A DNA stretch of 25,334 nt from an uncultured bacterium (GTDB lineage: Bacteria; Planctomycetota; UBA1135): positions 1 to 25,334 of the forward strand of contig CAWWAN010000001.1 of the NCBI GenBank assembly GCA_963934925.1, written 5' to 3'. Position 1 is the stretch's first letter. The number at the start of each line of letters is the position of its first letter. The position numbers and the translations under genes were made by a program. The notes beneath the pieces are model-generated. The model ran no database searches and was not told the origin of the DNA. It saw only the letters and a program-made list of their open reading frames with translations. This document shows, one piece after another, positions 459 to 12,910 of the stretch.

Positions 459-3400
459 TTACCAAGCGTAAGGGATTTTAATGTATCCGAGTGCTGGACG
501 ACTTAAGCTATTAAAGCTGCCTTGGCTCAATGCGTCGATATCAAAGCTAACGCGATAACGAATAAAGCGTTTGCCATCGAGGTCGTCAAAGGTTGTACTG
601 TTTTCGCCAGTCCAGCTAGTAATTGTTGCTGCATCAGGCTCGAGGCTTTCTTGAGACACTCCATCAGCGCCCTGGAATTGAATGCGCACAGAAGACGATG
701 GTGGTAGCTTGTCCTTGATATCGCCAGAGGAAACACCGAAGAACTTGTTGTAGATGACAAAGGCACTACCGTCGATGATCGCTCCATCCGCAACCAGCGT
801 GGCAAGGACCAAATCACCATTACTGGTTAAATCGGCGCTAACGATTTCATGCGAAGTGAGTGCGGCAGTTGTAAAGTCACAACCTATTAATAACTTAGGA
901 TTGAACTTCCAGGTATCGGCAATGATTAAGTTAGTAAGGTCAATTGTCACACTAAATCCACTTGCATCAATAGTGAAGTCGCTAGCATCGCCATCAGTAA
1001 TCGGGGTAAGTTGAATTACCGTAGCAGTCGCGACATCGCTCTCGACATAACCTAAAGCATCTAGTCCTGCAAAGTTCAAATCGCCGGTAGCACCGTAGTC
1101 GGGGAATATCCCCACTCCGTTACTCGGCTGACGCAAGTTCGCCAGACCCGTATCAATCCACACCGATTGAACCTGTGATTGCGGTGAGAAGAATGGCATT
1201 AATGTAAATGGCACAGGCATAGCGTATAGCGCCAAAACCTGATCCTGGCGGTCAGAAACCACCGGGTTACCAAGATTTTCAAGAGTTACATACTGCTTGA
1301 ACGCCGCATCAACATCGCCATGGTATGCGATGTCGGCAATCGGGTCTGGGATATGTATTTGGATCACCCCGGAAGCGCCGGCACCACCACGCCCAGCCTG
1401 GAAACTTCCATTACCATCGTAATTATTCGGTGCATTCTCACTTGCAGGGAAGTTTGCCGCCAATTTGGAAGCAGACCAACCACGACGCCCACCAATAGCT
1501 TGCATAACGTAGTTAGGAATAGTGTTAGCAAAGAAAGTGTTAGGGTTGCTCGGAACACCGGGTACGCCGACGTTAATGGCACTTAAGTTAAGACCCGAAG
1601 CAGAGCTTAGAATCAAGTGTCCGCCTGAGCCACCGCCTGAGCCTGAGACCTGAGTTGTAGAACCATCTAGGCTACCACCTGAGGTAGAATCGCCACCAGC
1701 CCCGTTACCACCGTTCACCTTAAGCACTGCGGAGCTGCCGAGAATGATATGGCCAATCACGTGAATTTGTATTTGACCACCGCCGCCCCCACCTCCAGCA
1801 CCACGGAAGTAGCGCTGCGTATTGCCGTGAGGGAAAGCTGTGTCTGGGTAATGTAATGACAATGGCAAAGGTTGGTCGAGGCCGTCGTTAATGTAACGAA
1901 GGAGTGTTTGAAGGTCACCTGACCCACCGCCACCTGAACCTGCATACGGAGCCAGTAACTCGCCGGTAACAGTAGCAGGGCTCGCCCCAGTACCATCCCA
2001 GAAGAAACGTTCACCATAAAAATCGTTAGCTGTGCCGAACTCTGGATCGACTGAAGAAAAGACTGAGACACCACCACGCCCTCCATCTGGCCCGGAAACA
2101 GCTAAACCGTACCTTTCATCGTTGTTAATTGAACCACCGGTTTGAGCGGGGTCGAAGATTATGGTATCGAGAGCTCCGAGGTCTTGACCGTTATCAAGAT
2201 AGCCGCGAACAGCCTGTGGGAACGGCGCGGTGTCTATCTGGCTTGCACCAACAGACGATCCGCGCATTCCATCTTCGGCACCCATGAAATAAGTGTCGGG
2301 GTCTATTGTGTTATCGAAAATAGTGTGACGATCACCGCGCAGGTCAGGGCCGGAGTTGTCGTGGCTACTGGGCAAACTGCTTGATGGCCATTCGTCCCAG
2401 AAAACGGCGTCGGTTCGTGTTAGAGCAAAGCCACCCCCTCCACCACCACCGGCGACAAGGGATTCTGCGCCGATCAAGACTACACCGCCAGGGAAAATCG
2501 CCGCAGGCGATCGATCTTGTTGGTAACCACCTTCACCACCACTACCACCACCAAAGGCCGAGCCAAAAGGGCCGAAGCCATTTTCGCCCAACTGTGTACT
2601 GTAGTCGGTTGTAGTAGACGCATCGCCACCTTTCCCACCACCACAAGCACCTTCAGCGCCAAGAACCACTACATCGGGACGAGAGGTAAGGCCATCCGCG
2701 GCGTTGGCATCGTAACCACTCGCATCGACTTCTCCGTTAATTGTGGCGTCACCAGCGACATAAATGATTAGTGGATTATCGCCAAAAGCACGGATTGATG
2801 CTCCTGCATCAATAGTGAAATCATTGGTGTACATCACACCATCTACGACCGTGAACGTGTTCCCTAAGTCATCCGTTTGCTCGTCGGTTCCCGTTGTATT
2901 TATCTCAATATGTGAGTTTGTAAGGCGGAAATCTATTTTATCGCTACCATCGTTGTCTGGGAAGATGAACGCTGCCACGATCTCACCTTGATTAATTTCG
3001 GCGAGTGGCTGCGGCAAGCTAGCTAAGTAATCGAGTCCTGTTCCTACGGAGAAATCATCTATGAATTGGTCATAGGTAACATCATCTGGAACGACCGATG
3101 TGTCATTGTAAATATCAGCGAGGCTGCCTAACTCAACAATTGGTGAAACATCGCCACTGCTATTCTGATCACCGCCCAAATCTTCGAAGTCCGATGTCGT
3201 AACGACACGCACACTTCGCCCAGGAAGAAGCACACCACTTACCTGGAACAACAATTCTGCAGAATCGCCACAGTTATTGACCACGACCCATTCGCCTGGA
3301 ACTATTTGAGGAAGTGCAGGGAACTGGCCATCACTTAGAGAGTACTCAATGTATATCCGATCCGTTTGAAAATTTATAGGCGAGGGACCGACACCTTGAT

Positions 3401-10439: not shown

Positions 10440-10573
10440 GTGTTTATGCTGGTTTACAAGTTAAACTTGATTATCGAAAGACCTTTTGCCCACAAAGGGT
10501 TACGGGTCAATACAATCGGATGTGTATCCTAATATCGCGGAGCCTAAATTCGGGTCGAGAATTACCTTAAATA

Positions 10574-10590
10574 TGCAAATTTCATGCCAA
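10574..10590 (-). promoter_or_regulatory. Sigma54 (RpoN) -24/-12 promoter
   Basis: The minus strand reads TTGGCATG-AAAT-TTGCA, matching YTGGCACG-N4-TTGCW at 12 of 13 specified positions with exact GG-N10-GC spacing. It is intergenic and points at the lipoprotein genes. Predicted +1 near 10563. Confidence 0.8.
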
Positions 10591-10637
10591 CTTCCTATCG
10601 CGGAAGATCTTGTTTCCATGCAATCTCAGCGCATTAG

Positions 10638-10653
10638 TGTGCGATATCGCACA
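10638..10653. promoter_or_regulatory. Perfect 16-bp palindrome; candidate enhancer (UAS) for a sigma54 activator
   Basis: TGTGCGATATCGCACA = TGT-N10-ACA, about -75 to -90 from the predicted sigma54 start. No U-tract follows it. Confidence 0.55.
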
Positions 10654-10657
10654 GCCC

Positions 10658-11977
10658 TTAATTGCCCCAATTGAAACCGCACGCTTCGGCATCGGAGCGT
10701 TGGGCGAAGGGGTGCATGTTCTCAGGGCTAATGCGCTGCGCTGCCGGAGAATGCTGGGCGTGGAATTTTCGCGTCGAAGAGCAGCCAATATAATCAACAA
10801 CTAGCTGAGAATCGCACAAAGAACAGAGGAAAACCCTACGTGAACGGCCAAAAATGCGCCACGGGAAAGCCACGCCTTCGTGGCGACTCACACAGTTCTC
10901 GTTTGGGCATTCCTTTAAGCTATGCACCGTATTGCCCGCCGAAAGAGAGCGCAGCGGCAATAAGGAATAATCTTGCCCTGCCAAAGCCGCCAAAAACACT
11001 GCCTGACGAACAATCGGCCCATTTGCCGCCTGCTCAAAGTAAACAGCGCGCCGATCACCGTCTATTGAGGTCGGGAGCTCGTCACGCCGTGGCAGAGGAT
11101 GCAAAAACAAGCAGTTCTCGAGGAGTTTATTCTCAATAATCTCTGAATGAATACCTGGGAACACCCCACCAGCAGGCATTGCCCCGCGCTCGACCTGCAA
11201 TCGGGTCAGATACAGCGCATCTAAATCTTCGAGTTTCAAAACGTCGGTGCCAAACAAATCTTTTTGCACCAATCCGCGCGGCTCAATAATGCGCGCCTCG
11301 GAGTTACCCGTCCAGTCAGAAAATAGCGGATGCGAGACCCATCGCAATCGATAGTCAAAGTAGTCAACAATACGCTGCTCGAAGCTGGGAGCCCAGTCAA
11401 GACCGGGCCCAGGTAACAGCACAATTTTCACGCCGAGCATAGCCAGCGACCATGCTAAAGAACGCACGGTACGGCCATTGGTCAAATCGCCAAGCAAAGC
11501 CACCGTCTTGCCTTGAAACTTTCCATCCCATTTTTTGTGGAGGGTGTAGAGGTCGACCAACGTTTGGGTTGGATGCCCCAATCGCCCATCACCACCGTTT
11601 ATCAGTGGTATCTCAGAATAACGCGAGGCATAGCGTGATGCGCCGTCATACGGATGACGTAGCACCATCAAGTCGGCATAGCTGCTGACAACGCGTGTCA
11701 TGTCGGCTAAAGATTCGCCTTTAGCGCCCGATGTAGATTTCGAATCGCTAACGGAAATGACGCTCGCGCCCAAACGGTGCGCAGCAGATTCGAAGGAAAG
11801 CCTAGTGCGCGTTGACGGTTCGTTAAAAACAGTGGCGATCACCTTACCGTTTAATGCCTGCGAATACTTTGACGGCTGGGCCTCGATGTCTGCAGCGCAT
11901 GCAAACAGAGACTCTAGAAATGTCGGGCTTAGTGCTTCCGAAGAATGAAGCCCGTCGATGGTCGGCAAAATACTCAC
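10658..11977 (-). CDS. pyrB: Aspartate carbamoyltransferase catalytic chain with a fused PyrI-like zinc domain and a further small C-terminal domain
   Basis: ATCase motifs FNEPSTRTRLSFE, KGESL, HPTQTLVDL, GDLTNGRTVRSL, YLTRLQVER, HPLPR. C-terminal CPNENC...CSLC. GTG start. Confidence 0.93.
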   Translation of the reverse strand: MSILPTIDGLHSSEALSPTFLESLFACAADIEAQPSKYSQALNGKVIATVFNEPSTRTRLSFESAAHRLGASVISVSDSKSTSGAKGESLADMTRVVSSYADLMVLRHPYDGASRYASRYSEIPLINGGDGRLGHPTQTLVDLYTLHKKWDGKFQGKTVALLGDLTNGRTVRSLAWSLAMLGVKIVLLPGPGLDWAPSFEQRIVDYFDYRLRWVSHPLFSDWTGNSEARIIEPRGLVQKDLFGTDVLKLEDLDALYLTRLQVERGAMPAGGVFPGIHSEIIENKLLENCLFLHPLPRRDELPTSIDGDRRAVYFEQAANGPIVRQAVFLAALAGQDYSLLPLRSLSAGNTVHSLKECPNENCVSRHEGVAFPWRIFGRSRRVFLCSLCDSQLVVDYIGCSSTRKFHAQHSPAAQRISPENMHPFAQRSDAEACGFNWGN

Positions 11978-12007: not shown

Positions 12008-12910
12008 TTAGGATAACTGTTCTGGCAATGGCGCGCCCCACTTTTCAAACAAAGCTTGCGTAATCGTTGCGCAGCGATGCTTGGGGTCTAATTCATTTAG
12101 CGGGATCGCCCGCCGCTGGTACTTCCCCATATGTTCGCGCGCAGGCAAATCGCAGCGATTGACAAACATTAAATCATCGTGGCCTTTGCGCGATTCAAGG
12201 ATATCTTCGATGTCAGAGCCCAATGCCGATGAGTTGTCAAAGAGCCAAACACACTCGTCGACATCGTCGAGTAACTGAAGGGTCATTGCAACAGCTGCTG
12301 CGTCATTAGCTTGCTCATCGTCAACGAAATGGCATAAGCCAGCGGTATCAACTAAGGTCGCAGCAAGCGCATCAGCTCCACTTCCGAGCATAATAGGAGC
12401 TTCTACGAAATCTCGCGTAGTGCCCCGATGTTCGCTTACTGTCACACGCTGCTCAGACAGCCATGCGTTAAACAATGTCGACTTACCAGCATTGGGCGGG
12501 CCTACCAGGGCAATGCGCGGTGGTAAAGACAAGCGTTGCCGCCAGCAGTCACTAAGCCGTGATGAGGAGTCACTGTTGTTCAACAATCGCAAAGCCAACG
12601 GTGAAGTCGCAGCAGAAATTAGAGAAAGCGGCTCGCGTAATTCTTGCCACTTATTGTCGGATAAAAATTGGTGAAGGGCACGACTTACGCCATAGCCTCC
12701 GTGAAAATGCCCCTCGTAAACGCCATCGGAAGTTTTCACCAACAAGAATTGATCGAAATCTAAGCGCCCCTGCTGTGGCTGCACCAATCGAAACTTATTG
12801 ACGGTTACCAAATCAATACCAAACAGCTCAGAGACTTCAGTCATCGTGCCCTTGAATTCAAATATTGCTAACGCACTCGCACCAGTCGATGACAACTGAC
12901 GGTATCTCAT
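12008..12910 (-). CDS. Reduced MnmE/TrmE-like GTPase (300 aa)
   Basis: G1 GPPNAGKS, G2 GTTRD, G3 DTAG, G4-like NRCD. The N-terminus resembles TrmE_N (GASALAIFEFKG; DQFL...EGHFHGG). It lacks most of the helical domain and the C-terminal FCxGK motif. Confidence 0.7.
   Translation of the reverse strand: MRYRQLSSTGASALAIFEFKGTMTEVSELFGIDLVTVNKFRLVQPQQGRLDFDQFLLVKTSDGVYEGHFHGGYGVSRALHQFLSDNKWQELREPLSLISAATSPLALRLLNNSDSSSRLSDCWRQRLSLPPRIALVGPPNAGKSTLFNAWLSEQRVTVSEHRGTTRDFVEAPIMLGSGADALAATLVDTAGLCHFVDDEQANDAAAVAMTLQLLDDVDECVWLFDNSSALGSDIEDILESRKGHDDLMFVNRCDLPAREHMGKYQRRAIPLNELDPKHRCATITQALFEKWGAPLPEQLS

What the first reader, a model, noticed from the sequence alone, without database searches (positions are those of the whole stretch)
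10658..10910. Chimeric ATCase: PyrB fused to only the zinc domain of PyrI plus a degenerate Ada-like domain
Seen after the catalytic chain: CPNENCVSRHE...FLCSLC, then YIGCSSTRKFHAQHSPAAQRISPENMHPFAQRSDAEACGF. Established: CPNxNC...CxxC is the C-terminal Zn domain of PyrI that docks on catalytic trimers. PyrB-PyrI fusions are known in Thermotoga and Treponema. Inference: the PyrI nucleotide-binding allosteric domain is absent here. The tail resembles the small Ada metal-binding-like domain (pattern S..YH...C..A.RI..EN...F....EAEA.GY) with its Cys ligands lost. This suggests a new oligomerisation or regulatory arrangement.
Basis: partly seen in the sequence, partly recalled or inferred. Interest (0 to 1): 0.65.

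Follow-up and report, generated by a model that had tools for sequence, protein, structure and literature searches.

The report
ATCase fused to zinc and Ada-like domains
This marine planctomycete makes its only detectable aspartate carbamoyltransferase as one chain that carries the zinc docking half of the classical regulatory subunit and a small cysteine-less Ada/"sunset"-type end domain but no nucleotide-sensing half, a design that is conserved in several phyla and that I found described in no paper.

Summary
The ORF at 10658-11977 (minus strand, 439 aa) has three parts.

- **Catalytic chain:** an intact ATCase with all catalytic motifs.
- **Zinc domain:** after a 17-residue linker, a PyrI-type zinc domain. 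Its four Cys are invariant in 105 homologues. The profile matches solved PyrI chains at E 2.5e-10.
- **Tail:** 47 residues homologous to the Ada N-terminal / "sunset" metal-binding domain. Profile-profile probability is 97.9% (E 3.7e-13), while reversed and shuffled controls give E >= 0.067. In a search of 48,161 solved chains, N-Ada and PyrI were the only four hits with Z >= 2.

The tail has lost the metal site: H406 and S410 replace the first two ligands and the distal CxxC is missing in all 118 tails examined.

No PyrI allosteric domain is present in the protein. None was found in the genome either, which is 75% complete. The tail is about as conserved as the catalytic domain.

All forms that carry zinc domain plus tail, including those with a further PyrR domain, group together in the catalytic-domain tree. 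The design occurs in Planctomycetota, Chloroflexota, Alphaproteobacteria and others.

How the protein assembles and how it is regulated is inferred, not shown. This scan had already found the same design on other DNA, and those agents also found no paper on it.

The parts
10658..11977 (-). Whole ORF, 439 codons plus stop, GTG start: the fused ATCase (P0001)
   Evidence: it is the only OTCace_N match in the genome
10967..11977 (-). ATCase catalytic chain, residues 1-337. OTCace_N covers residues 12-147. The Asp-binding domain runs to about residue 329 and the last helix is 320-337. Motifs present: STRTR 55-59, R107-H108, HPTQ 135-138, R169-T170, TRLQxER 258-264, HPLPR 293-297.
   Evidence: Pfam E 6.9e-41 and 6.6e-12; motif residues invariant in 105 sequences; Foldseek E 1.3e-25 to E. 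coli and P. abyssi catalytic chains
10916..10966 (-). Linker, residues 338-354. Too short to hold a PyrI allosteric domain, whose Pfam model has 93 positions.
   Evidence: It is the least conserved segment: 8% identity to the other clade against 31-40% for the domains.
10802..10915 (-). PyrI-type zinc domain, residues 355-392. Ligands are C357 (10907-10909), C362 (10892-10894), C385 (10823-10825) and C388 (10814-10816).
   Evidence: N359 (equivalent to E. coli r-chain N111) is kept in 102 of 105 and E367 in 103 of 105.
10661..10801 (-). Ada-N / sunset-like end domain without a metal site, residues 393-439. Predicted beta-beta-alpha-beta-alpha. H406 (10760-10762) and S410 (10748-10750) sit at the former ligand positions, and the chain ends where the distal CxxC would begin.
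   Evidence: pLDDT 89-95

Best explanation
**Shown.** The gene encodes the genome's only detectable ATCase as a single three-module chain:
- an active-looking class-B-type catalytic domain;
- the zinc domain of the regulatory chain PyrI with all four Cys;
- a well-folded Ada-N/sunset-type domain that has lost three of its four metal ligands.

There is no PyrI nucleotide-binding domain.

**Inferred.**
- The zinc domain docks on the catalytic trimer as it does in class B holoenzymes. There it stabilises the trimer and tunes its kinetics.
- The zinc-free tail is a structural cap or adaptor packed onto the zinc domain. Other lineages attach a PyrR-type nucleotide sensor at this same point.
- In this organism the enzyme therefore lacks PyrI-type CTP/UTP/ATP feedback. 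Any regulation must arise within the trimer or through the tail.
For: **Domain assignments.** Searches support PyrB plus the PyrI zinc domain. Searches support the Ada-like tail.

**Loss of ligands.** None of 118 tails keeps the distal CxxC.

**No allosteric domain.** PF01948 is not found in the protein or the genome. It is also not found in any of the five same-order genomes, all of which carry the fused form.

**Docking residues.** N359 (equivalent to E. coli N111r) and E367 are kept in at least 102 of 105 sequences. Substituting N111r abolishes nucleotide feedback in E. coli (Eisenstein et al. 1989, as quoted in bioRxiv 10.1101/662718).

**Rigid packing.** The full-length AlphaFold model has pLDDT 92 and pTM 0.92, with C-terminal blocks at 89-95.

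**Tail under selection.** Identity to the window's protein within its own clade is 54% for the tail, 61% for the catalytic domain and 57% for the zinc domain.

**Adaptor role.** Forms of about 650 aa place a PyrR equivalog domain directly after the same tail (NF003549 170.6 bits, cut-off 138). In these forms H406 and S410 are not kept.

**Always fused.** Every short hit begins inside the last PyrB helix, lies on a contig of about 1 kb, or looks like a frameshifted piece, so all are fragments.

**In vitro precedent (from memory, not retrieved here).** Markby, Zhou and Schachman (PNAS 1991) showed that an isolated 70-residue zinc fragment of E. coli PyrI binds c3 and alters its kinetics. Peterson et al. 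(1994) showed that it raises thermal stability.
Against: - No oligomer model, metal analysis or kinetics is available.
- I could not inspect the model's coordinates, so where the zinc domain sits on the catalytic domain is not verified.
- H406 (105 of 118), S410 (98 of 118) and C399 (102 of 118) are conserved more strongly than a purely structural cap needs. That leaves room for a ligand site.
- The genome is only 75% complete, so a separate regulator encoded elsewhere is not excluded.
- TIGR00670 scores 235.3 bits, just under its cut-off of 236.95.
Confidence: 0.55

Rival explanations
1. The tail is an oligomerisation element. Tails from two trimers pair across the equator and replace the r-r dimer of class B enzymes. 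The result is a hexamer of fused chains with homotropic cooperativity but no nucleotide control.
For: The tail is as conserved as the enzyme. It is kept even in catalytically dead paralogues. It follows the C-terminus of the zinc domain; in E. coli that region faces the 240s loop of the opposite trimer (K143r, cited). Bridging trimers is the one function of PyrI that a bare zinc domain cannot provide.
Against: No multimer prediction or contact evidence exists. Forms with only the zinc domain and no tail exist in Clostridia, Armatimonadota and two Planctomycetota. N-Ada and sunset domains are not known to me as dimerisation modules.
Confidence: 0.2
2. The tail is a new effector-binding or nucleic-acid-binding regulatory domain. 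The former metal pocket (H406, S410 and nearby R403 and R415) binds a phosphate-bearing ligand, or RNA or DNA, and signals through the zinc domain.
For: H406, S410 and R/K415 are conserved at and around the old ligand positions. In N-Ada that pocket contacts a DNA backbone phosphate (structures 1u8b and 1zgw). NCBIfam names sunset-domain variants of ribosomal proteins.
Against: The PyrR-fused forms replace H406 and S410 with other residues (Y and E in the three forms; C and T in L009) yet keep the domain. No ligand-binding family matches. A 47-residue domain without its metal is a small platform for a specific site.
Confidence: 0.15
3. The extension is a decaying remnant, or an assembly or frameshift artefact, with no function.
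For: Three of the four metal ligands are lost. Pfam's Ada model does not reach the window's own sequence.
Against: The frame is open. The architecture recurs at the same length in more than 100 proteins from many samples. Conservation equals that of the enzyme. The model is confident.
Confidence: 0.03

Closest known systems
Class B ATCase holoenzyme, (PyrB3)2(PyrI2)3, of E. coli, Moritella, M. jannaschii, P. abyssi and S. acidocaldarius (e.g. PDB 1d09, 2be7, 2yww, 1ml4, 1pg5)
   Same: The catalytic chain is structurally closest to these enzymes (34-36% identity, E about 1e-25). The zinc domain is the same family with the same four Cys.
   Different: Here the zinc domain is fused to PyrB's C-terminus. 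The nucleotide-binding, dimer-forming allosteric domain is missing. An extra Ada-like domain follows.
Fused PyrB-PyrI of Thermotoga maritima (Chen et al. 1998, cited in PMC4581275) and NCBIfam NF009916 'bifunctional catalytic/regulatory subunit'
   Same: Catalytic and regulatory parts lie in one polypeptide.
   Different: Those fusions carry the complete regulatory chain and are allosteric. The window's protein scores 82.7 bits against a cut-off of 800 and matches the 525-position NF009916 model only over positions 52-335.
In vitro complex of the E. coli catalytic trimer with the isolated 70-residue zinc fragment of PyrI (Markby, Zhou and Schachman 1991; Peterson et al. 1994). Recalled from memory, not retrieved here.
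   Same: A catalytic trimer carrying zinc domains only, with no allosteric domains. This is the nearest functional analogue.
   Different: That complex is an engineered, non-covalent laboratory construct without any Ada-like tail.
N-terminal metal-binding domain of Ada (Pfam PF02805; PDB 1u8b, 1eyf, 1zgw) and the 'sunset' domain (NCBIfam NF051437)
   Same: Same fold and the same sequence signature ([YF][IV]G..[ST]T..[FY]H, then I.PEN...F, then A...G[FY]), shown. Sunset-type repeat proteins are retrieved by the module's own profile.
   Different: Ligand positions are H406 and S410, and the distal CxxC is absent, so an Ada-type zinc site and methyl acceptor cannot exist. The context is an enzyme tail, not a DNA repair regulator.
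PyrB + zinc domain + Ada-like + PyrR four-module ATCases (Binatia and 'delta proteobacterium' MAGs; L009, P0074, P0114; earlier notes e1-5222569, e1-2800851, e1-2884349)
   Same: The first three modules are the same, and their catalytic domains nest inside the zinc-plus-tail group.
   Different: They add a C-terminal PyrR domain. The window's protein ends after the tail, and no PyrR was found in its genome.

Membership tests
ATCase catalytic chain (PyrB; PF02729 + PF00185; TIGR00670) | Carbamoyl-phosphate and aspartate binding motifs: STRTR, R-H, HPTQ, R167 equivalent, TRxQxER, HPLP | tested here: met
   All are present and invariant in 105 homologues.
ATCase catalytic chain (PyrB; PF02729 + PF00185; TIGR00670) | Curated model score above the cut-off | tested here: inconclusive
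   Both Pfam domains are well above their cut-offs. TIGR00670 scores 235.3 against 236.95 and NF002032 scores 224.8 against 263.
ATCase catalytic chain (PyrB; PF02729 + PF00185; TIGR00670) | Enzyme activity | not testable with these tools
   Needs an assay or complementation of a pyrB mutant.
PyrI zinc domain (PF02748) | Cx4C...Cx2C ligand set and a model score above the cut-off | tested here: met
   The four Cys are invariant. The score is 24.3-24.9 bits against 23.4 on the domain alone, but 20.5 bits when the whole protein is scored. The profile hits solved PyrI chains at E 2.5e-10.
PyrI zinc domain (PF02748) | Fold | tested here: met
   Foldseek ranks 1-20 are PyrI chains (probability 0.80-0.99, rmsd about 2 A over 38 columns). 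VIA-align gives Z 3.8 and 3.5.
PyrI zinc domain (PF02748) | Binds zinc and docks on the catalytic chain | not testable with these tools
   N111r and E119r equivalents are conserved. No coordinates or multimer model were available.
Complete regulatory chain PyrI (TIGR00240; PF01948 + PF02748) | N-terminal nucleotide-binding allosteric domain | tested here: not met
   PF01948 gives no match in the protein or the genome. The linker has 17 residues. TIGR00240 scores 16.2 against 148.55 and covers model positions 96-142 only.
Fused bifunctional PyrB/PyrI (NF009916) | Full-length match including the regulatory chain | tested here: not met
   82.7 bits against a cut-off of 800, covering only positions 52-335 of the 525-position model.
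Ada_Zn_binding (PF02805) / sunset (NF051437) | Sequence homology to the domain | tested here: met
   hhalign gives 97.9%, E 3.7e-13. Against classical Ada alone it gives 95.8%, E 6.8e-9, and against short sunset-like domains 98.5%, E 2.1e-15. Controls give E >= 0.067. BLASTP gives E 7e-8. The curated models themselves stay below their cut-offs: sunset scores 13.7 against 27, and PF02805 gives no hit on this sequence.
Ada_Zn_binding (PF02805) / sunset (NF051437) | Fold | tested here: met
   1u8b (Z 4.8) and 1eyf (Z 4.2) rank first and second, among only four chains with Z >= 2 out of 48,161. Foldseek aligns 1u8b at rmsd 1.4 A over 44 columns. The Z values are modest because the domain is small.
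Ada_Zn_binding (PF02805) / sunset (NF051437) | Four metal ligands: Cys38, Cys42, Cys69 and Cys72 in Ada, or His-Cys3 in sunset-type domains | tested here: not met
   H406 and S410 occupy the first two positions and the chain ends at the third. None of 118 tails has the distal CxxC. The tail is homologous to the family but is not a functional member.

The most novel reading that the evidence does not exclude
Zinc-domain-only fused ATCases are an unrecognised, widespread structural class of this textbook allosteric enzyme. In them a metal-free sunset/Ada-type domain has been recruited as a new oligomerisation or effector module. Some lineages plug a PyrR sensor into it. Others keep it on catalytically dead paralogues that may act as regulatory subunits.
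Probability: 0.3. Interest if true: 0.7.

Novelty: new variant of a known kind. Interest (0 to 1): 0.55.

Why it matters
ATCase is the classic model of allosteric regulation. Its accepted bacterial classes are the catalytic trimer alone, the complex with dihydroorotase, and the complex with complete PyrI.

This natural family keeps only PyrI's docking half and adds an unrelated small domain. It therefore asks what the zinc domain does by itself in vivo, and how pyrimidine synthesis is controlled without the nucleotide site.

The family also offers ready-made material for dissecting the c-r interface. The related PyrR-fused and catalytically dead forms suggest that regulatory hardware has been exchanged in modules.

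The family is found in uncultured marine and soil lineages. My paper searches returned nothing on it.

Tried and rejected
- **Direct Pfam and NCBIfam scans of the 44-residue tail.** Pfam gives no hit. NCBIfam gives only a sub-threshold sunset hit, E 0.047.
- **Pfam Ada model against the whole genome at E <= 10.** It does not touch the tail.
- **hmmsearch of the module profile against PDB sequences.** It finds PyrI only, not Ada. The Ada link needed profile-profile and fold comparison.
- **Search for a stand-alone zinc-plus-tail protein.** A word-based search for short proteins found nothing. The 19 short hits and the short hits are fragments or frameshifted pieces: they begin inside the last PyrB helix or lie on contigs of about 1 kb.
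- **Idea that other Planctomycetota have full PyrB-PyrI fusions, suggested by long open frames.** Rejected: pyrB and pyrI lie in different overlapping frames, which is an ordinary operon.
- **Weak Pfam hits.** DUF7830, YmcF-like, Rng_hyd_C and HTH_20 appear in 3-4 of 105 members at E >= 0.014. I treat them as chance.
- **PyrR in the window's genome.** Only a weak match to another phosphoribosyltransferase, E 3.1e-4.
- **Promoter and terminator scan around the gene.** No more sites than in shuffled sequence.
- **Papers not held.** The Markby 1991 and Chen 1998 papers are not held under the ids tried.

Full report
**What is there**

The finding lies in the 3' part of one ORF, 10658-11977 on the minus strand. 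The ORF has 439 codons and a GTG start. Homologues begin at the same position, which supports the start codon.

Pfam finds three domains:
- OTCace_N at residues 12-147, E 6.9e-41;
- OTCace, reaching residue 329;
- PyrI_C at residues 352-392.

PyrI_C scores 20.5 bits in the whole protein. Scored on the C-terminal part alone it gives 24.3-24.9 bits, above the cut-off of 23.4.

The catalytic motifs STRTR, R-H, HPTQ, TRLQxER and HPLPR are all present and invariant in 105 homologues. By fold, the catalytic part is closest to class B ATCases of E. coli, P. abyssi and M. jannaschii (E about 1e-25, 34-36% identity).

This is the only transcarbamoylase detected in the genome, which is 1.49 Mb in 167 contigs and 75% complete.

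**The zinc domain**

C357, C362, C385 and C388 are invariant in 105 sequences, and all 105 match PyrI_C. A profile of the C-terminal module (alignment A3) hits solved regulatory chains at E 2.5e-10 (M. jannaschii) to 2.5e-7 (E. coli). The alignment covers the CPNxNC...CxxC core.

N359, the equivalent of E. coli N111r, is kept in 102 of 105 sequences. E367 is kept in 103 of 105. Substitutions of N111r, N113r and E142r abolish nucleotide feedback in E. coli (Eisenstein et al. 1989, as quoted in bioRxiv 10.1101/662718).

**No allosteric domain**

Only 17 residues separate the last PyrB helix (320-337) from the zinc domain. PF01948 finds nothing in the protein or in the genome, while it is detected in 7 of the 14 well-known control genomes searched alongside.

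In a sample of 121 Planctomycetota genomes:
- 33 have a canonical PyrI;
- at least 12, counting the window's own genome, carry PyrI_C in a long PyrB-like frame without PF01948;
- all five genomes of the window's order belong to this second group.

**The tail**

Direct model scans fail or stay below threshold on the window's own tail. Four independent lines nevertheless tie it to the Ada-N / sunset fold.

1. Twenty-four of 105 homologues give weak Pfam Ada_Zn_binding hits. It is the fourth most frequent family, after the three expected ones.
2. An alignment of 118 tails was compared by hhalign with 27 Ada_Zn_binding domains. I had taken these from Planctomycetota genomes by their Pfam matches.
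   - All 27 domains: 97.9% probability, E 3.7e-13 over 42 columns.
   - Classical Ada domains only: 95.8%, E 6.8e-9.
   - Short sunset-like domains only: 98.5%, E 2.1e-15.
   - Reversed and column-shuffled tails: E 0.067-0.49.
3. BLASTP aligns the tail with a small secreted Planctomycetota protein (L106). That protein's domain passes Pfam's cut-off. The alignment has 16 of 40 identical residues with no gap, E 7e-8, and shares YIGCSST..FH and I.PEN.
4. An AlphaFold model of residues 345-439 (pLDDT 88.5) was searched against 48,161 representative solved chains. Only four reached Z >= 2: N-Ada 1u8b (4.8), N-Ada 1eyf (4.2), PyrI 2yww (3.8) and PyrI 2be7 (3.5). Foldseek lists PyrI chains first. Apart from one low-probability row, N-Ada comes next: 1u8b aligns at rmsd 1.4 A over 44 columns.

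**State of the metal site**

In the alignments, H406 takes the place of Ada Cys38 and S410 that of Cys42. The chain ends (G-F-N-W-G-N) where Cys69 would follow. None of 118 tails keeps the distal CxxC. H406 is kept in 105, S410 in 98 and C399 in 102 of the 118.

The tail is therefore homologous to the family but cannot be a functional Ada-type or sunset-type zinc site.

A profile search of 1.84 billion representative proteins retrieved two kinds of hit. One kind is fused ATCases. The other is proteins made of two to six tandem copies of the same signature with a complete His-Cys3 site. NCBIfam calls two of the three I scanned sunset-domain proteins. These are the nearest intact relatives. I found no paper on this domain.

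**Is the tail functional?**

Within the window's clade, identity to the window's protein is 54% for the tail, 61% for the catalytic part and 57% for the zinc domain. Against the other clade the figures are 35%, 40% and 31%, while the linker drops to 8%.

The full-length model is confident throughout (pLDDT 92, pTM 0.92). That suggests the C-terminal modules pack in a defined way, but I could not inspect the coordinates.

**Distribution and history**

Four architectures exist.

| Architecture | Where found |
|---|---|
| PyrB + zinc domain only | Clostridia, Armatimonadota, two Planctomycetota |
| PyrB + zinc domain + tail | Planctomycetota, a Verrucomicrobiia MAG, Dehalococcoidia, Alphaproteobacteria |
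| The same + a PyrR equivalog domain | Binatia-type and 'delta proteobacterium' MAGs |
| Canonical separate pyrB-pyrI | Other Planctomycetota and many other phyla |

I built a quick maximum-likelihood tree of 115 catalytic domains.
- All 39 forms with zinc domain plus tail, including the PyrR-fused ones, fall on one side of a single branch. That branch is weakly supported (SH-aLRT 66).
- Zinc-only forms arise several times, and those of Clostridia nest among unfused Clostridia.
- The window's clade of 8 rows sits on a very long, fully supported branch of 1.7 changes per site.

No stand-alone zinc-plus-tail protein was found. All short hits are fragments or frameshifted pieces.

**How it most likely works**

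Shown: this is a catalytically competent-looking ATCase with a cis-fused PyrI docking domain, a metal-free Ada/sunset-like end domain, and no PyrI nucleotide site.

Inferred:
- The zinc domain binds the catalytic trimer as in class B enzymes. The in vitro c3-zinc-fragment complex of Schachman's laboratory (recalled from memory) shows that such a complex is stable, has altered kinetics and is more heat-stable.
- The tail is a structural cap or adaptor. The PyrR-fused relatives attach their sensor exactly there and do not keep H406 and S410.

Two rivals remain open and cannot be separated with these tools:
- the tail pairs two trimers into a cooperative hexamer;
- the old metal pocket has become a ligand site.

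**Novelty**

Searches of the paper library returned nothing on this architecture. A 2015 review of transcarbamylases lists only separate or fully fused regulatory chains (PMC4581275).

Earlier agents of this scan described the same design on other DNA (Chloroflexota, an alphaproteobacterium, Binatia) and also found no paper. This window adds:
- the Planctomycetota case;
- the link to intact sunset repeat proteins;
- the grouping of all tail-bearing forms in the catalytic-domain tree;
- two catalytically dead paralogues.

I rate it a new variant of a known kind.

Noticed in passing
L155:1662-3032:+ (genome G034) and L157:about 1365-3167:+ (genome G113): Two Planctomycetota genomes that already have a canonical pyrB-pyrI operon also carry a second PyrB-like gene with zinc domain and Ada-like tail. 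Its catalytic motifs are destroyed (STRTR, HPTQ and HPLPR are all lost). The four Cys and tail residues H406, S410, I416, N420, F424, A430 and G434 stay identical to the window's protein. It looks like a pseudo-ATCase, possibly a regulatory or scaffold subunit.
   Followed up: partly
L009:3827-5818:+; P0074, P0087, P0092, P0114: ATCases of about 650 aa with four modules: PyrB, zinc domain, Ada-like domain and a PyrR equivalog domain (NF003549 170.6 bits against a cut-off of 138). Their catalytic domains nest inside the zinc-plus-tail group.
   Followed up: partly
L014, L016-L018, L025, L027, L028, L034, L067, L154, L156: PyrB fused to the zinc domain only, ending a few residues after the CxxC (about 360-380 aa for most). 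On the catalytic-domain tree these arose several times. The Clostridia group nests among unfused Clostridia PyrB.
   Followed up: partly
P0146, P0147, P0150; L106:1492-1833:- and L109: Secreted or membrane proteins built from one to six copies of an intact His-Cys3 sunset/Ada-like domain with the same [FY][IV]G..[ST][RK]K.H signature as the ATCase tail. Their function is unknown and no paper on the domain was found.
   Followed up: partly
window 12008-12910 (-): A 300-aa protein with only a central MMR_HSR1 GTPase domain (residues 132-240) ends 30 nt upstream of the ATCase start, which suggests co-transcription. Upstream of it, on the same strand, lie type III pantothenate kinase, a PDZ protein, Obg and RNase E/G.
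   Followed up: no
window 10440-10657: The 218-nt gap directly downstream of the ATCase stop precedes the operon of very large lipoprotein-like proteins. Earlier notes on this window place a sigma-54 promoter and a TGT-N10-ACA palindrome there; the palindrome ends 5 nt from the pyrB stop codon. I did not test this.
   Followed up: no
Tree, clade of P0001, P0007, P0010, P0027, P0049, P0062, P0069 and L002: The window's ATCase clade sits on a branch of 1.7 changes per site. Six of its eight rows have an amino-acid composition unlike the rest of the alignment. Same-order genomes carry the slower-evolving type. This may reflect fast evolution or composition bias in a small-genome marine lineage.
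   Followed up: no
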